41,597 bases of DNA from a virus (IMGVR_UViG_2703718828_000001:1-41597); one strand, 5' to 3'. Shown: positions 3,054 through 39,235, counted from the stretch's first letter. Notes: generated from the sequence alone by a model not told the origin. Translations and numbers: made by a program.

Positions 3054-3733
3054 TGGGCTGCTCCTTCCAGTGAATCAGGCAGTTTTGTGTAATGCGTGAC
3101 GCCTCGCAGTGAATTGATAGAGCGGGAGTGGTCTGCAAGCCAGATTTTGTGGATATTGGTGTCGCTGCCTGCGCAGAAGTTGTGTTCCATCCACTTCGCG
3201 GAGCAGTATTGTGGGCCAACATCCGTTTCGTAGCGCACCCAATAGCGTCCAAACTCTGCCGGTTGATTGCCTTCAATCCAGACCTGCGTCCGCACTTCAG
3301 CCAGGTAGGCGTCGGTGGCCGGGGTTTCAACGCGGAAGTAAACCGGATCGCCGCCTTCAAAGTTACCAGGGTCATCGACCAGTGTTTCGTGCTCATCAGC
3401 AGAGTAGACCTCCTGACGAAGCAGTCCATGCTTCAGTGCCAGCTCCTGTATTTCCGCACCATCAGCGGAGCCACCTTGCCAAGCGATAGAGAGCAACGCA
3501 TCGACGAACGCCTTCAGCCCCGCATTCTCCGCAGCCATCGCCGCTAACCTGGCTTCCAGATTCTCAATGGTGATTTCTAACTGGCGACCGTAGCGTGAGG
3601 ACTCGGTGAGCAACTGATCTGACAGTGAGAGCTTGCGCACCAGGTAGGCAGAAAGCGTTTCACCAACCAAGAGATCGGTTGGAATGCACTTACCATTAAG
3701 AAGACCATTCATTTCTGTAATCGTAAATTTCAT
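3050..3733 (-). CDS. Hypothetical early-left protein
   Basis: 227-aa ORF, translationally coupled on both sides. Confidence 0.5.
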   Translation of the reverse strand: MKFTITEMNGLLNGKCIPTDLLVGETLSAYLVRKLSLSDQLLTESSRYGRQLEITIENLEARLAAMAAENAGLKAFVDALLSIAWQGGSADGAEIQELALKHGLLRQEVYSADEHETLVDDPGNFEGGDPVYFRVETPATDAYLAEVRTQVWIEGNQPAEFGRYWVRYETDVGPQYCSAKWMEHNFCAGSDTNIHKIWLADHSRSINSLRGVTHYTKLPDSLEGAAQ

Positions 3734-9268: not shown

Positions 9269-9759
9269 GCCTTTTGAAAAACATTCAGCTGTTCATCACA
9301 AACAACCCTGGCCTGACCAACAAGCAGCTGGCGGCATCAATGCCACAGTTTGACGTTCACGCCGTGCAGCGTGGCGTATGTCACCTGGTAAAACTTAACC
9401 GCGCCACACGTAAGCATAACGGCAAGTGCTACCAGTATTTTGCTGAGCCACCAAGCGGAGCGGTAGGGGAAGTGATTTCCCGCGTGAAAATTGACAGAGC
9501 CCAGAGCACTACTGACGCGGAACAAGAAGCCGTATCAAATCCGGCAGTAGCTGCAATGCTGCTGAAAGCGAAGGGGCTGACTGAAAAGGGTTTGTATCAG
9601 CGTGCGGCGACAGTCCTGATGGAGGCTTTCAACCGTTCTAAGAACGAGGATGTGCGCGAAAAGATTCTGGTTGAGCGCCAGAAATGCCTCAGCCAGGTTC
9701 ACAAGCCGAAAGCACCAACGGATTCATGGTGTCTGGCTGGCAGGGGGAGAAACGTCTGA
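9265..9759 (+). CDS. Hypothetical protein in the replication module
   Basis: 164-aa ORF, AGAGGAG RBS, coupled to flanking genes. Confidence 0.45.
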   Translation: MSLLKNIQLFITNNPGLTNKQLAASMPQFDVHAVQRGVCHLVKLNRATRKHNGKCYQYFAEPPSGAVGEVISRVKIDRAQSTTDAEQEAVSNPAVAAMLLKAKGLTEKGLYQRAATVLMEAFNRSKNEDVREKILVERQKCLSQVHKPKAPTDSWCLAGRGRNV

Positions 9760-10418
9760 TGAAATATTCACTGATTTACGCCGATCCAGCCTGGGAATAT
9801 GGCAACACCATCAGCAACGGTGCAGCAGAGAACCACTACGGCACGATGAAGCTGATCGACATGAAACGTCTTCCTGTGTGGGAGCTGGCTGCCGAAGATG
9901 CCGTTCTGGCCATGTGGTTCACCGGCACTCACACACGTGAGGCTATCGAACTGGCTGAGGCGTGGGGCTTTAAGGTTCGCACGATGAAGGGGTTCACCTG
10001 GGTGAAGCTGAACCAGTTGGCTGAGCAGCATATTAACAAAGCCCTTCAGGCTGGTGGCGTAGAGGACTTTTACGACTTCCTCGACCTGCTCAATGTGCAG
10101 ACCCGGATGAACGGTGGCAACTCCACCCGCGCTAATACCGAAGACCTGCTGATCGCCACCAGAGGGAAGGGCCTCGAACGCATGAACGCCAGTGTGAAAC
10201 AGGTTATCTACAGCCCTCTTGGTGAGCACAGCGAAAAACCAGCAGAGGCTCGTTTCCGTCTGGAGCAGCTTTACGGCGACGTTCCGCGCATCGAACTTTT
10301 CAGCCGCTGCGGCGCGCCTGGCTGGGATCACTGGGGAAATCAGGCTGAGCGCCCAGCAGTTCATTTGTTGCCAGGTGTTGTCTGCGCCATCGACTGGGCT
10401 AAAGAGGATCTTGCATGA
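9759..10418 (+). CDS. DNA N6-adenine methyltransferase, MT-A70/phage Dam-like
   Basis: Start MKYSLIYADPAWEY carries a DPAW variant of the (D/N)PP(Y/W) catalytic motif; ATG at 9759 overlaps upstream stop. Confidence 0.65.
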   Translation: MKYSLIYADPAWEYGNTISNGAAENHYGTMKLIDMKRLPVWELAAEDAVLAMWFTGTHTREAIELAEAWGFKVRTMKGFTWVKLNQLAEQHINKALQAGGVEDFYDFLDLLNVQTRMNGGNSTRANTEDLLIATRGKGLERMNASVKQVIYSPLGEHSEKPAEARFRLEQLYGDVPRIELFSRCGAPGWDHWGNQAERPAVHLLPGVVCAIDWAKEDLA

Positions 10419-36326: not shown

Positions 36327-36964
36327 GCGGATTCGAATCTTATAACGATGCCGGAAAACTTCAGGTTGATTCGGAGAACAGGTCGACACTTTTTTATGAC
36401 CAGAGAACGCTGGGCGCTGTTACTGATAAAGGCTTTTACAGAGTAAACAGCCCGTTTGGTGATGGTTCGACGCTGGGGTATACCCCCACTCAGTTCTGGA
36501 ATGACGGAAGACTCAGATGGCTTCAACTGGGGACAAATAAATATGGGTTACCTGGCGCAAACCTTCTTGAGGATAACGCCGGGAGTATGATCCGCACTGC
36601 GCGAAATATTGGACTGGAGAGCGGGTACCTTGATGTTCTGGACAGCTCAGGGAACCTTATCTGGAGTGCTGTGTCAGCTTCGAAAATGCCCCGGGTGGTT
36701 GGCTTCTTTGATGTGCCGGCTAACTATGACCTGCAGAACAACACGTTTAGCATCACGCCAGGGTTCAACCCATGGATTCTGGTAAACAATTGTCCCGGTA
36801 ATCTCAGTGATGATGGAACGGTTGTTGGATATTCAGGTATTGCTCTTAAATGGACTGGTTCGCAGTTACAGGGGAGGTACATCTCAAGTAATCAGCGAAC
36901 CTGGGCCCAGACCATGCAGGGGAGAGGATTAAGAATTCCGATCGCCCGGTTTGTTGGGATTTGA
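36323..36964 (+). CDS. Hypothetical protein downstream of J
   Basis: 213-aa ORF, ATGA-coupled to the previous gene. Confidence 0.45.
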   Translation: MSGFESYNDAGKLQVDSENRSTLFYDQRTLGAVTDKGFYRVNSPFGDGSTLGYTPTQFWNDGRLRWLQLGTNKYGLPGANLLEDNAGSMIRTARNIGLESGYLDVLDSSGNLIWSAVSASKMPRVVGFFDVPANYDLQNNTFSITPGFNPWILVNNCPGNLSDDGTVVGYSGIALKWTGSQLQGRYISSNQRTWAQTMQGRGLRIPIARFVGI

Positions 36965-37291
36965 TGCCGGAGGAACACGCGGGTAGTGAGTGGCGATCAT
37001 ATCTTGCTTCACGCCCTTTGCTAACTCAAAACGATAAACAACATCAAACTTATTCGTTTTTTTATAGCAAATATTGCTCAAGCGCTTATTGATATGGCGG
37101 CTGAATATTCCGTTGCTACTGTCGGAAATAACTTCGACATCCCTGGTGGCACAGTCAATATTTACGTGAATATCCCCAGCCAAAGATAAGCGAGCGGCAT
37201 CAACCGGGTAATCCATCTGGAATGCGTTTTCTGTGTGCTTATTCGTACATCCAGTCACGAGCAAAATCGCTGCAACAAATAAAAGTTTCAT
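36929..37291 (-). CDS. Lipoprotein, possible Cor-like superinfection exclusion factor (by position only)
   Basis: MKLLFVAAILLVTGCT lipobox signal; minus strand between J-region genes and the side tail fibre. Confidence 0.5.
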   Translation of the reverse strand: MKLLFVAAILLVTGCTNKHTENAFQMDYPVDAARLSLAGDIHVNIDCATRDVEVISDSSNGIFSRHINKRLSNICYKKTNKFDVVYRFELAKGVKQDMIATHYPRVPPASNPNKPGDRNS

Positions 37292-37354
37292 CTCAACATT
37301 CCTGTTTATGCGGGAACTTCCATTTTATTAGAGTTTAAAAAATAGTCAGATTGA

Positions 37355-37400
37355 TATGAGCGATCAATTTTTTTTACATTATTGATCGCTTTAAACGATC
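37355..37400. promoter_or_regulatory. Palindromes with three GATC sites in the divergent intergenic region
   Basis: agcgatcaat ... attgatcgct inverted repeat and aacgatcgtt palindrome; GATC at 37362, 37384, 37397. Confidence 0.4.
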
Positions 37401-37421
37401 GTTATTATCGTGAGGTAGTTC

Positions 37422-38597
37422 ATGCTTTATACCATCGGCACAATATCTGTTAACGGAAATACCGCCACCGGCACCGGTACAAACTGGACGGCACCTGCCA
37501 GCCAGATTCGTCTCGGCCAGACCCTGGTGGTACTTTCTAATCCCGTTCAGCTGTTCCAGATTACCGCCATTAACAGTGCAACCTCGTTAACAGTAACGCC
37601 TGCAGCGTCACCCGCGGTGAGCGGTCAGAAGTACGGCATTCTGGTGACAGATGCCTTGTCAGTCGATGGCCTGGCACAGAGCATTTCGCAGCTCATTAAC
37701 GAGTACGACGAGAATATTGGCGGCTGGGAAACGTTCGCCACTACCTCAGCAAACCAGAACATTACGGTCACCATCAACGGTAAAGCAGTCACCATTCCCG
37801 CTATTGGTAAGTTGCTCCAAAAGGGAGGCAATGGCGCTCTTGCGGTTGCTGACGGAGGAACTGGAGCAAAGACCGCGGCAGATGCAAGGGTGTCCTTTGG
37901 ATGGGTTAATGACATGCTTCCTGTTGCACTTGGGGGGACCGGATCTGCGGATGCCTCTGGGGCTCGAACTAATCTCGGTCTTGGCGAGAGCAGTAACCTA
38001 AAATTTGCGGGGATGACTATTGAAAGTAATAGCTATACCTCTATCGTTGTCAGAAATACATCGCGTCAGTCTGACGATGTGGGATCTCAGGTAAGCTTGG
38101 AGGTTTCCCCATCAGCAGGCGGCAGACCATATTTTACGCAACGCAGTAATTCAGGTTCTAATACTGGCCAGGCTGTGAATAATTTACCAACCTCATCAGG
38201 CGTGCTCGCCATACAGGGGACCTCGGGGCTAATGTACAAACGCGATATATCTCCGGCACCGTTAAGCGATGCCGTAGAACGAATTGCTGCTCTTGAGATG
38301 GTAAATTTCACCTATAAAGATGATGAACAAAACAGGGTAAGGTTTGGGATTATTGCGGAGCAGGCAGAGGCCGTGGCACCTCAGTATATCAAGCACAATC
38401 TGGAGCCAGATCCTGATGTCATTTATAAAGCAAACGAACTTGATGATGAAGGACGCCCACTAAATCCTGTAATGCGCGACAGGCCTTCAATCGACAACAA
38501 CCCAATCGTTATGGATTTACTGGGAGCGGTTCAGTTTTTGCACCAGCAGGTTCTTGAGCTGAAAAGCAAACATGAGGCTGGGGATGTTCAGCAGTAA
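37422..38597 (+). CDS. Side tail fibre with C-terminal intramolecular chaperone (peptidase S74-like)
   Basis: C-terminal RFGIIAEQAEAVAPQYIK motif typical of self-cleaving chaperone domains; Gly/Thr-rich N-terminal region. Confidence 0.7.
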   Translation: MLYTIGTISVNGNTATGTGTNWTAPASQIRLGQTLVVLSNPVQLFQITAINSATSLTVTPAASPAVSGQKYGILVTDALSVDGLAQSISQLINEYDENIGGWETFATTSANQNITVTINGKAVTIPAIGKLLQKGGNGALAVADGGTGAKTAADARVSFGWVNDMLPVALGGTGSADASGARTNLGLGESSNLKFAGMTIESNSYTSIVVRNTSRQSDDVGSQVSLEVSPSAGGRPYFTQRSNSGSNTGQAVNNLPTSSGVLAIQGTSGLMYKRDISPAPLSDAVERIAALEMVNFTYKDDEQNRVRFGIIAEQAEAVAPQYIKHNLEPDPDVIYKANELDDEGRPLNPVMRDRPSIDNNPIVMDLLGAVQFLHQQVLELKSKHEAGDVQQ

Positions 38598-38641: not shown

Positions 38642-38661
38642 TACTGTATATAAAAACAGTA
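38642..38661. promoter_or_regulatory. Near-consensus LexA (SOS) box
   Basis: TACTGTATATAAAAACAGTA matches TACTGTATATATATACAGTA at 18 of 20 positions; ~18 bp upstream of the ATG at 38679. Confidence 0.7.
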
Positions 38662-38678: not shown

Positions 38679-38918
38679 ATGCCCCGCAAATCAGACCTTC
38701 GCGCCGCTTTCGTTGCCGCCGTGCACAAAAACCCGAAAGGGTATCAGTGCCTGCGCACCGCTGACTTTATCAGGGAGCTACGCGCCAGAAACTGGCATTT
38801 CACAGAAACTGACGCCAATGAATGGATAGAACGATACCAGGCTGGCTTTGTAGATAAAACACCCGACGACAGCCAGAACCGGCTCTGGATAATGCGCAAT
38901 ATGGGGTACATACGATAG
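38679..38918 (+). CDS. Hypothetical small protein, first gene of the putative SOS-regulated pair
   Basis: 80 aa from ATG at 38679 with GGAGTG RBS. Confidence 0.5.
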   Translation: MPRKSDLRAAFVAAVHKNPKGYQCLRTADFIRELRARNWHFTETDANEWIERYQAGFVDKTPDDSQNRLWIMRNMGYIR

Positions 38919-39235
38919 TGGGCTTCGTCTCGCCGGCGGGCGACTATATCGAGCGCAGGTTAAATCCCGAGGATATGCTCACGACAGATCAGAGCCGTAT
39001 CGTCGAAACGGCTACCGGCTATGCCGTGATTGAGCCGGTGACAAAACTTTCGCAGGGGCAGGTGCTGCTAATTCTGTGTGGTGGGTATACCCAGTTTGCG
39101 AAACTACAGGGCCGATCGTTAATCACTGATGATGGCGAAGCGTTAGAAGGTGAGGCCATGGAAGAGGCAGAAGTAATGGGCAGGGTGACGTATTTCATCA
39201 ATCGCACTATACGGGGTGATGACTGTCCGGTTTAA
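38918..39235 (+). CDS. UmuD'-like protein, apparently pre-cleaved and lacking the catalytic Ser
   Basis: Starts at GTG with GFVSPAGDYIERRL, matching the UmuD segment just after its Cys24-Gly25 cleavage site (GFPSPAADYVEQRI); SGDSM position replaced. Confidence 0.5.
   Translation: MGFVSPAGDYIERRLNPEDMLTTDQSRIVETATGYAVIEPVTKLSQGQVLLILCGGYTQFAKLQGRSLITDDGEALEGEAMEEAEVMGRVTYFINRTIRGDDCPV

What the first reader, a model, noticed from the sequence alone, without database searches (positions are those of the whole stretch)
37292..37421. GATC-dense palindromes between the lipoprotein and side tail fibre genes
A 10-bp inverted repeat (agcgatcaat / attgatcgct) and an adjacent palindrome (aacgatcgtt) place three GATC sites within ~40 bp of the divergent promoter region. 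The prophage also encodes an MT-A70-like adenine methyltransferase (9759-10418). This hints at methylation-sensitive or repressor-controlled expression, possibly phase-variable, of the receptor-binding fibre or the exclusion lipoprotein.
Basis: partly seen in the sequence, partly recalled or inferred. Interest (0 to 1): 0.4.

Follow-up and report, generated by a model that had tools for sequence, protein, structure and literature searches.

The report
OxyR/Dam-type epigenetic switch beside prophage lipoprotein
The three GATC sites lie in a conserved site that matches the known OxyR/Dam methylation on-off switches (agn43, Mu mom, P22 gtr), placed just upstream of the predicted promoter of a prophage lipoprotein that probably blocks phage entry; this particular copy has four extra T's that probably break the switch.

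Summary
GATC sites start at 37362, 37384 and 37397. The 10-bp inverted repeat is at 37359-68 / 37381-90 and the palindrome AACGATCGTT at 37394-403.

GATC density alone is not unusual: 53% of simulated windows contain such a triple. The evidence is conservation and pattern. In 67 distinct relatives the GATCs are essentially invariant. The intergenic core is 96% identical to consensus, against 78-80% at third codon positions.

The element consists of two OxyR-type half-sites (consensus ATAGnTnnnAnCTAT). ATTGATATGAGCGAT (37350-64) ends in GATC1. ATCGCTTTAAACGAT (37385-99) is flanked by GATC2 and GATC3. GATC spacing in relatives is 18/13 bp, as in Mu mom (18/13) and close to agn43 (19/13). The element is 81% identical to the P22 gtr OxyR(B)-OxyR(C) segment.

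The same module recurs upstream of many unrelated prophage accessory genes, including cor. It directly abuts the predicted lipoprotein promoter. The lipoprotein sits in the cor position and has a TonB-C-terminal-like fold.

Best reading: a host Dam/OxyR phase-variation switch for the exclusion lipoprotein, not the fibre. No link to the phage MT-A70 enzyme was found.

The window alone carries a TTTT insertion, giving half-site centres 35 bp apart instead of 31. That geometry was never seen elsewhere, so this copy is probably disabled or locked. This is a new member of a known kind.

The parts
37350..37364 (.). OxyR-type half-site A' (ATTGATATGAGCGAT), whose inner end lies in GATC1
   Evidence: 8 of 10 specified positions of ATAGnTnnnAnCTAT. 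In 67 relatives T6 is 67/67 and A10 is 56/67, while the n positions 8-9 vary. It aligns with agn43 ATAGAATAAAACGAT and P22 gtr OxyR(B).
37385..37399 (.). OxyR-type half-site B' (ATCGCTTTAAACGAT), flanked by GATC2 and GATC3 13 bp apart
   Evidence: 8/10 match. T6 is 64/67 and A10 is 66/67, while n positions 5, 8 and 9 vary. It has the same gATCGnTnnnAnCGATc form as P22 gtr OxyR(A) and (C) and as the agn43 GATC-II/III site.
37362..37365 (.). GATC1
   Evidence: Present in 67/67 relatives.
37384..37387 (.). GATC2
   Evidence: Present in 67/67 relatives.
37397..37400 (.). GATC3, the centre of the palindrome AACGATCGTT (37394-37403)
   Evidence: Present in 66/67 relatives.
37359..37390 (.). Inverted repeat AGCGATCAAT / ATTGATCGCT, formed by the inner ends of the two half-sites
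   Evidence: The equivalent inner repeats are visible in the agn43 and mom sequences. There are no changes inside the GATC cores, and the outer pairs vary mostly one-sidedly.
37368..37375 (.). T8 run. It carries a window-specific TTTT insertion; all relatives have T4.
   Evidence: The half-site spacer is 16 nt in 66 distinct relatives and 20 nt only here. No other length variant was found in viral or metagenome collections. The generic module pattern has 0 hits at gaps N16-24.
37322..37349 (-). Predicted sigma-70 promoter of the lipoprotein gene: -35 CTGACT (37349-37344), 16-nt spacer, -10 TAAAAT (37327-37322)
   Evidence: Promoter scan, 9/12 match. Both hexamers are conserved across relatives while the spacer varies. 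The -10 alternates between TAAAAT and TAGAAT. A TAAAAT lies at a comparable distance from the ATG in lipoprotein homologues that lack the module. The transcription start was not mapped.
36929..37291 (-). Lipoprotein gene (120 aa, lipobox LVTGC), the proposed regulated gene
37351..37380 (+). Weak candidate plus-strand promoter TTGATA-18-TACATT. In relatives it reads TTGATA-16-CAnnAT.
   Evidence: Promoter scan, 9/12 match. The -10-like hexamer is poorly conserved. If it is real, the OxyR-type site would cover it.
37422..38597 (+). Tail fibre gene (flanking; probably not the controlled gene)
   Evidence: Homologous fibre genes in HK97, mEpX2 and mEp213 have no module directly upstream.

Best explanation
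The GATC palindromes are one copy of a conserved cis-regulatory module of the agn43 / Mu mom type. It has two OxyR-type dimer half-sites. The first ends in one GATC and the second is flanked by two GATCs 13 bp apart.

Shown by sequence: the module lies immediately upstream of the predicted promoter of the minus-strand lipoprotein gene. That gene is an accessory gene in the position where related phages carry the exclusion gene cor.

Inferred mechanism: a host OxyR tetramer binds the unmethylated site and shields the GATCs from host Dam. Dam methylation of the GATCs blocks OxyR. Each state propagates itself through replication, so a lysogen population would split into lipoprotein-ON and lipoprotein-OFF lineages.

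The sign of control is not determined. I lean slightly to OxyR as repressor with the methylated state ON, as in agn43 and mom.

In this window a unique TTTT insertion moves the half-site centres from 31 to 35 bp apart. That spacing is off the helical register seen everywhere else. This copy is therefore probably impaired and locked in one state, unless the insertion is a homopolymer assembly error.
For: (1) Geometry. GATC spacing is 18/13 bp in all 66 distinct relatives. It is 18/13 in Mu mom and 19/13 in agn43, and the 13-bp pairs also occur in P22 gtr.

(2) Consensus. Both half-sites match ATAGnTnnnAnCTAT at 8/10. Centre-to-centre distance is 31 bp in relatives, against 32 in agn43, 31 in mom and 32 in gtr. 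This is the only properly spaced 8+8 pair in the window.

(3) Conservation pattern. The specified positions T6 and A10 and the GATCs are conserved while the 'n' positions vary. Core identity is 0.96 against 0.78-0.80 at third codon positions.

(4) Similarity to a proven switch. 39 of 48 positions are identical to the P22 gtr OxyR(B)-OxyR(C) segment. The alignment score is 29, against a shuffle mean of -3.8 (sd 3.5, maximum 9). OxyR binding there, and its block by methylation, were shown experimentally (PMC2909390).

(5) Recurrence and strict spacing. A 21-base pattern encoding the architecture hits at least 120 viral contigs with 70 distinct module sequences, in 10 or more unrelated gene contexts. 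With the same pattern, gap N15 gives 8 hits, N16-24 gives 0 and N4-13 gives 2.

(6) Target gene. The module abuts the -35 of a conserved predicted lipoprotein promoter. BLAST-found copies lie upstream of cor in mEp213, mEp043, mEp237, HK140 and HK225, in the same orientation relative to the exclusion gene. A diverged E. coli F467 prophage keeps the 18/13 spacing with different filler bases.
Against: There is no experimental evidence for OxyR binding, differential methylation or bistable expression at this locus. The lipoprotein transcription start is predicted, not mapped.

The OxyR consensus is degenerate: 20 fifteen-mers in the window reach 8/10. The viral scan forced the consensus positions, so it cannot by itself prove OxyR specificity. 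Another LysR-type or GATC-reading protein could be the binder.

Lipoprotein homologues in 7 loci have no module at all, so the module is not obligatory for the gene.

The window's own spacing (35 bp) fails the geometry seen in every other copy. The plus-strand RNA of the region is predicted to fold unusually well (z = -4.1).
Confidence: 0.62

Rival explanations
1. The inverted repeats act at the RNA level. A structured 5' leader of the fibre mRNA or late transcript would control stability, processing or translation. The structure is a nested hairpin plus a small helix covering the Shine-Dalgarno and start codon.
For: The plus-strand RNA 37340-37425 folds to -23.5 kcal/mol, z = -4.1, with 0 of 200 shuffles as stable. 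The same holds for phage Flotzy. Outer stem pairs vary mostly as G-U-compatible changes on the plus strand, and 3 sequences show A-T to G-C at 37359/37390.
Against: The stem core never varies, so there is no real covariation. The few double changes probably come from one lineage. Pairing does not require GATC, yet GATC is invariant. The same module occurs upstream of unrelated genes on either side and in either orientation, and in agn43, mom and gtr. The symmetry of a two-fold protein site predicts the fold as a by-product. There is no Rfam match.
Confidence: 0.1
2. The palindrome is an operator for another DNA-binding protein, and the GATCs are only part of its recognition sequence. The protein could be a different host LysR-type regulator such as HdfR, a phage repressor, or SeqA acting on hemimethylated DNA.
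For: The palindromic half-sites (TTGATCG) with conserved cores and variable linkers look like a dimer or tetramer operator. The OxyR consensus is weak. HdfR binding at std is also blocked by GATC methylation (PMC6735912). SeqA is an accessory factor at opvAB (PMC4856963).
Against: The module occurs in lambdoid, P2-like and other phage contexts with different immunity regions, which argues for a shared host factor. The std/HdfR GATC spacing is 13/9, not 18/13. Geometry and consensus coincide with three loci where OxyR is the established binder.
Confidence: 0.15
3. Regulation depends on the prophage's own MT-A70-type adenine methyltransferase (9759-10418) rather than on host Dam.
For: The ORF is an MT-A70 family member. 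HK639, which also has the module, encodes a 78% identical homologue. Prophage class-beta adenine methyltransferases such as M.EcoGII can methylate any adenine (PMC7544214).
Against: The enzyme's specificity is unknown and was not tested. The established switches with this architecture use host Dam. M.EcoGII-type prophage enzymes are reported silent in lysogens. Homologues occur in 504 phage records of many hosts, with no shown tie to the module.
Confidence: 0.05
4. The GATC cluster is a chance feature of an AT-rich intergenic spacer that is conserved only because it is a recombination joint between phage modules.
For: A triple GATC within 35 bp arises in 53% of simulated windows. Phage module boundaries are often conserved.
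Against: Conservation is position-specific: GATCs and consensus positions are fixed while filler positions are free. Diverged copies in F467, MINF_7C, mEp213 and a Yersinia phage keep the 18/13 spacing with different filler. The strict gap preference is N14 much greater than N15, with essentially nothing at other gaps.
Confidence: 0.03

Closest known systems
agn43 (flu) Dam/OxyR phase-variation switch of E. coli (CP4-44 prophage region)
   Same: Three GATCs with 19/13 spacing, against 18/13 in this family. Half-sites ATAGAATAAAACGAT-N17-ATCGTTTATATCGAT are both 8/10, with one GATC at the inner end of the first and two GATCs flanking the second. It has a single tetramer site, so it is a two-state switch. 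It is also prophage-associated.
   Different: In agn43 the first half-site contains the -10 (TAGAAT), and the annotated 5' end of the leader is at GATC-I. OxyR therefore sits on and downstream of the promoter of the rightward gene. Here the equivalent hexamer (TTGATA) is not a -10, and the best promoter points the other way, abutting the first half-site. Spacing differs by 1 bp in relatives and by 3 bp in the window.
Mu mom regulatory region (OxyR represses unless three GATCs are Dam-methylated)
   Same: Identical 18/13 GATC spacing and 31-bp half-site distance (ATAGAAAACGACGAT-N16-ATCGGTAATACAGAT). The site lies upstream of the regulated promoter rather than on it, in a phage.
   Different: The mom promoter lies on the two-GATC side and also needs the phage activator C (my own knowledge). 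Here the gene lies on the single-GATC side, and no activator is known. The mom half-sites match the consensus less well (7/10).
P22 gtrABC OxyR/Dam switch (Broadbent 2010, PMC2909390)
   Same: 39 of 48 positions are identical to the OxyR(B)-N17-OxyR(C) segment, including a 17-nt identical run TACATTATTGATCGCTT. GATC pairs lie 13 bp apart inside a half-site. It controls a prophage function that blocks superinfection.
   Different: gtr has three half-sites and four GATCs, giving alternative OxyR(AB) activating and OxyR(BC) repressing positions. Its promoter lies just downstream of OxyR(C). Here there are only two half-sites and three GATCs, and the fibre ATG is 21 bp after GATC3, which leaves no room for a gtr-type promoter.
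opvAB OxyR/Dam switch of Salmonella (PMC4856963)
   Same: Its OxyR half-sites are centred at -43 and -75, with the proximal one immediately upstream of the -35. The predicted positions here are about -42 and -73 in relatives (-77 in the window).
   Different: opvAB has four half-sites and four GATCs, and OxyR is an activator. GATC placement relative to the half-sites differs.
cor superinfection-exclusion genes of phi80/HK022-type phages
   Same: cor has the same genomic slot, after J and two small ORFs and before the fibre. It also encodes a small outer-membrane lipoprotein. mEp213-type cor genes carry a 3-GATC module upstream in the same orientation.
   Different: No sequence similarity to Cor was detected. 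This 120-aa protein has a TonB-C-terminal-like fold. The gene is on the opposite strand. HK022/mEpX2-type cor has a degenerate module with one GATC.

Membership tests
OxyR/Dam epigenetic switch (agn43 / mom type) | Two OxyR dimer half-sites matching ATAGnTnnnAnCTAT | tested here: met
   37350-64 and 37385-99 both match 8/10. That is equal to or better than agn43 (8, 8) and mom (7, 7). The consensus positions are conserved in 67 relatives.
OxyR/Dam epigenetic switch (agn43 / mom type) | Half-site centres about 31-32 bp apart (reduced-OxyR register), or 22 bp (oxidised) | tested here: not met
   The window has 35 bp (20-nt spacer). All 66 other distinct family sequences have 31 bp. Reference values are 32 for agn43, 31 for mom and 32 for gtr. 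The family meets this feature; this copy does not.
OxyR/Dam epigenetic switch (agn43 / mom type) | GATC sites inside the OxyR site in the characteristic arrangement (one plus a pair 13 bp apart) | tested here: met
   GATC2-GATC3 is 13 bp. GATC1-GATC2 is 22 bp in the window and 18 bp in relatives, against 18 in mom and 19 in agn43.
OxyR/Dam epigenetic switch (agn43 / mom type) | The site overlaps or adjoins a promoter, so that occupancy changes transcription | tested here: inconclusive
   A conserved predicted promoter (CTGACT-16-TAAAAT) abuts half-site A'. No mapped transcription start is available, and the sign of regulation is unknown.
OxyR/Dam epigenetic switch (agn43 / mom type) | OxyR binds unmethylated but not Dam-methylated DNA | not testable with these tools
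   This needs EMSA or footprinting.
OxyR/Dam epigenetic switch (agn43 / mom type) | Heritable ON and OFF lineages with opposite GATC methylation, abolished in dam or oxyR mutants | not testable with these tools
   This needs single-cell reporters and per-molecule methylation calls.
Cor-type superinfection-exclusion lipoprotein (function of the regulated gene) | Small lipoprotein encoded next to the receptor-binding tail genes, in the cor slot | tested here: met
   A lipobox is present. The gene sits after J plus the HK022 gp24/gp25 homologues, where mEpX2, PHB10 and mEp213 carry cor.
Cor-type superinfection-exclusion lipoprotein (function of the regulated gene) | Sequence homology to Cor, or demonstrated exclusion | tested here: not met
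   There is no Pfam hit. The PHROG family is of unknown function. All homologues are annotated as hypothetical. The fold resembles the TonB C-terminal domain instead. Exclusion activity is untested.

The most novel reading that the evidence does not exclude
Dam/OxyR epigenetic phase variation may be a portable regulatory cassette that temperate enterobacterial phages attach to receptor-blocking and surface-modifying accessory genes. The contexts seen include cor, this lipoprotein, small membrane proteins in the accessory-gene slot upstream of the P2-like tail sheath gene, family-25 glycosyltransferases and others. Lysogen populations would then hedge between paying the cost of a blocked receptor and being open to superinfection. 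The lipoprotein controlled here would be a new kind of exclusion protein: a periplasmic TonB-C-terminal-domain decoy that captures the TonB box of the phage's TonB-dependent receptor.
Probability: 0.35. Interest if true: 0.7.

Novelty: new member of a known kind. Interest (0 to 1): 0.55.

Why it matters
Only a handful of Dam/OxyR switches have been characterised: agn43, gtr, opvAB and mom. My literature searches found none reported for cor-type exclusion genes or for this lipoprotein.

If the module works as predicted, superinfection exclusion by many lambdoid prophages would be heterogeneous within a clonal lysogen population. That would affect phage-host dynamics, phage-therapy escape, and the fitness cost of blocking TonB-dependent nutrient receptors.

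The module's strict sequence signature gives a simple search key for candidate phase-variable prophage genes. At least 120 viral contigs and 10 or more gene contexts were found here.

The window's naturally mis-spaced allele, next to 66 normally spaced relatives, offers a ready-made test of the spacing requirement.

Tried and rejected
(1) GATC density as evidence. Rejected: 53% of simulated windows have such a triple.

(2) The half-site TTGATCG as a repeated operator elsewhere in the prophage. It occurs 9 times against 6.1 expected, which is not enriched, and the full dyad occurs only here. A phage-wide repressor is therefore unlikely.

(3) FNR (TTGAT-N4-ATCAA). The spacing here is N7, so I rejected it by inspection (my own knowledge of the consensus).

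(4) Intrinsic terminator. The main hairpin is not followed by a T-run on either strand. The scan flags only weak, partly overlapping candidates.

(5) Known RNA family. No Rfam match at E <= 1.

(6) HdfR/std-type site. The GATC spacing there is 13/9, which does not fit.

(7) Slipped-strand phase variation of the T-run. There are no other T-run lengths among 66 relatives, viral contigs or metagenome contigs. The 3 metagenome hits were unrelated coding sequence.

(8) A gtr-type promoter downstream of the second half-site for the fibre. The ATG is only 21 bp after GATC3. No acceptable -10 fits, unlike the other right-hand contexts, which have TGnTAnnAT about 13 nt after the module.

(9) Literature search for a prior description of this locus or of cor regulation by OxyR/Dam. 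Nothing was found.

(10) Host identification. The window is not E. coli: the best match is 81-84%. Relatives are mostly Enterobacter and Pseudescherichia prophages. The species was not determined.

Full report
**What is there.**
The 130-bp interval 37292-37421 separates two genes. One is a minus-strand 120-aa lipoprotein gene (36929-37291, signal peptide ending LVTGC). The other is a plus-strand 391-aa tail-fibre gene (37422-38597) with a C-terminal Peptidase_S74 chaperone domain.

- GATC sites start at 37362, 37384 and 37397.
- A perfect 10-nt inverted repeat lies at 37359-68 / 37381-90 with a 12-nt spacer.
- The palindrome AACGATCGTT lies at 37394-37403.
- The ORF at 9759-10418 is an MT-A70 family member.

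**Is it more than chance?**
GATC density is not significant. The window holds 160 GATCs against 162 expected, and 158 of 300 Markov simulations contain a triple within 35 bp. The dyad CGATCAA-N-TTGATCG is unique in the window and absent from 100 shuffles.

The strong evidence is comparative. I collected relatives through the lipoprotein protein, so the intergenic sequence was not used for selection. These were six sequenced phages (HK639, CharmingMan, Eeyore, LMessi, Flotzy, LLS), 7 bacterial genome loci (Enterobacter, Pseudescherichia) and 70 IMG/VR contigs.

Seventy-six of these loci share the intergenic region, giving 67 distinct sequences including the window. Mean identity to consensus is 0.96 in the core 37341-37421. 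It is 0.78-0.80 at third codon positions of both flanking genes. GATC1 and GATC2 are kept in 67/67 and GATC3 in 66/67. Variable columns fall between the conserved blocks, like a footprint.

**What it resembles.**
Broadbent et al. (PMC2909390) report that in P22 gtr the GATC pairs lie 13 bp apart inside one OxyR dimer half-site. I therefore fetched the known OxyR/Dam loci and scanned them with the consensus ATAGnTnnnAnCTAT.

| Locus | Half-site 1 | Gap | Half-site 2 | GATC spacing |
|---|---|---|---|---|
| agn43 | ATAGAATAAAACGAT (8/10) | N17 | ATCGTTTATATCGAT (8/10) | 19/13 |
| Mu mom | ATAGAAAACGACGAT (7/10) | N16 | ATCGGTAATACAGAT (7/10) | 18/13 |
| This family | ATTGATATGAGCGAT (8/10) | N16 | ATCGCTTTAAACGAT (8/10) | 18/13 |

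In each locus one GATC sits at the inner end of the first half-site and two GATCs flank the second.

In the 67-sequence alignment the consensus-specified T6 and A10 are conserved. In A' they are 67/67 and 56/67; in B' they are 64/67 and 66/67. The unspecified positions 5, 8 and 9 vary freely.

The family sequence is 39/48 identical to the P22 gtr OxyR(B)-OxyR(C) segment. The alignment score is 29, against a shuffle mean of -3.8 (sd 3.5, maximum 9). The match includes a 17-nt identical run. The window contains 20 fifteen-mers at 8/10 or better, but this is the only 8+8 pair with a relevant spacing.

**The module is recurrent and its spacing is strict.**
BLAST with the 90-bp consensus found diverged copies in other settings:
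- Upstream of cor in mEp213, mEp043, mEp237, HK140 and HK225.
- Upstream of a 75-aa ORF beside the fibre genes of Yersinia phages.
- In an E. coli F467 prophage, with a diverged lipoprotein and fibre.
- Upstream of a secreted 116-aa protein in E. coli MINF_7C.

All four inspected (mEp213, a Yersinia phage, F467, MINF_7C) keep the 18/13 spacing with different filler bases.

I then scanned IMG/VR with a 21-base pattern encoding the architecture: ATNGNTNNNANCGATC-N14-GATCGNTNNNANNGATC. These lie in at least ten unrelated contexts:
- This lipoprotein-fibre junction.
- A small membrane protein next to the P2-like tail sheath gene.
- Family-25 glycosyltransferases.
- EAL-like proteins.
- Other lipoproteins.
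- umuD-like genes with LexA boxes.
- Several other membrane and secreted proteins.

The same pattern gives 8 hits with gap N15, none with gaps N16-24, and 2 with gaps N4-13. This fits a protein with a fixed register that is shared across phage types, meaning a host factor.

**Which gene is controlled?**
A promoter scan finds CTGACT-16-TAAAAT on the minus strand (37349-37322), directly abutting half-site A'. Both hexamers are conserved while the spacer sequence varies. The -10 alternates between TAAAAT and TAGAAT. With a start near 37315, the half-site centres fall at about -42 and -73 in relatives. This resembles opvAB OBSD and OBSC at -43 and -75 (PMC4856963).

Three comparisons point to the lipoprotein rather than the fibre:
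- (a) In mEp213 the module precedes cor with the two-GATC half-site distal, as here. That module-plus-gene unit is inverted relative to the fibre gene, and a terminator separates cor from the fibre.
- (b) Homologous fibre genes in HK97 and mEpX2 have no module directly upstream.
- (c) The fibre ATG is 21 bp after GATC3, which leaves no room for the gtr-type extended -10 promoter seen about 13 nt after the module in right-hand contexts.

A weak plus-strand promoter inside the module (TTGATA-16-CAnnAT in relatives) cannot be excluded.

Seven loci carry a 71%-identical lipoprotein with a different, GATC-free upstream region and a lambda-type fibre. The module is therefore optional for the gene.

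**What the lipoprotein may do.**
It occupies the slot after J and the HK022 gp24/gp25 homologues, where related phages carry cor. It has no Pfam family, and all homologues are annotated as hypothetical.

I infer a periplasmic decoy that engages the TonB box of a TonB-dependent receptor. Blocking a nutrient receptor would be costly, which would make phase-variable expression sensible. This function is a hypothesis.

**The window's copy is odd.**
The window alone has T8 at 37368-37375 where all relatives have T4. This puts the half-site centres 35 bp apart rather than 31, and GATC1-GATC2 at 22 bp rather than 18. Targeted scans found no other T-run length in viral or metagenome contigs; the three metagenome hits were unrelated coding sequence.

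Given the strict gap preference above, cooperative binding is probably impaired here. The gene would then be locked in one state. Alternatively, the run is a homopolymer assembly error.

**Rivals.**
An RNA structure is predicted (z = -4.1). However, the stem core never varies, pairing does not need GATC, no Rfam family matches, and the module works in both orientations next to unrelated genes.

Another binder cannot be excluded by sequence alone. Candidates are HdfR (whose GATC spacing is 13/9), SeqA, or a phage repressor.

The MT-A70 enzyme has a 78% identical homologue in HK639 and relatives in 504 phage records. Its specificity is unknown, and the established switches rely on host Dam. Prophage class-beta enzymes such as M.EcoGII are reported silent in lysogens (PMC7544214).

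**Verdict.**
This is a new, untested member of the known OxyR/Dam switch class. It most likely controls the exclusion-type lipoprotein and is part of a widespread prophage regulatory cassette, but it is probably defective in this particular prophage. No publication describing it was found.

Noticed in passing
[not shown]
   Followed up: partly
window 37368-37375: The T8 run carries four more T's than any of 66 distinct relatives. No other length variant was found in viral or metagenome collections. It is either a private switch-breaking mutation or a homopolymer assembly error.
   Followed up: yes
L091 (mEp213) 1190-1260; L089 (mEpX2) 1095-1160: cor genes of mEp213, mEp043, mEp237, HK140 and HK225 have a 3-GATC OxyR-type module upstream (13/18 spacing read in the direction of cor). 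HK022/mEpX2-type cor has a degenerate version that keeps only one GATC.
   Followed up: partly
IMG/VR loci L095-L212 (for example L097, L107, L109, L120, L122, L161): The same 3-GATC module lies next to many unrelated prophage accessory genes. These include a small membrane protein beside the P2-like sheath gene, family-25 glycosyltransferases, EAL-like proteins, other lipoproteins and secreted proteins. Right-hand contexts often have an extended -10 (TGnTAnnAT) about 13 nt after the module, as in P22 gtr.
   Followed up: partly
window 38642-38661 and 38679-39235: A LexA box, TACTGTATATAAAAACAGTA, lies upstream of a 79-aa ORF (phrog_3893). That ORF is followed by a UmuD-like 105-aa ORF. In IMG/VR loci L205 and L098, homologous genes carry both a LexA box and the 3-GATC module, which suggests combined SOS and epigenetic control there.
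   Followed up: no
window 37299-37316: The hairpin TTCCTGTTTATGCGGGAA overlaps the lipoprotein Shine-Dalgarno region. In relatives the stem is conserved and the loop varies. It could be a plus-strand terminator-like element ahead of the fibre gene, or a ribosome-site-sequestering helix in the lipoprotein leader.
   Followed up: no
L001 (HK639) 3130-3492: The GenBank annotation of HK639 lacks the minus-strand lipoprotein gene. It lists a 159-nt plus-strand ORF (HK639_26) inside that region instead. The E. coli F467 prophage copy (L093) is also unannotated.
   Followed up: no
window 9759-10418: The MT-A70 family adenine methyltransferase candidate has a DPAW motif. HK639 has a 78% identical homologue (HK639_35), and homologues occur in 504 phage records, including Stx and Vibrio phages. 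Its target sequence is unknown.
   Followed up: partly
L006 (phage LLS) 2619-2675: The LLS tail fibre gene downstream of the same module carries an annotated inverted repeat (IR-L), with a second fibre gene on the opposite strand. This suggests a DNA-inversion host-range switch beside the putative epigenetic switch.
   Followed up: no
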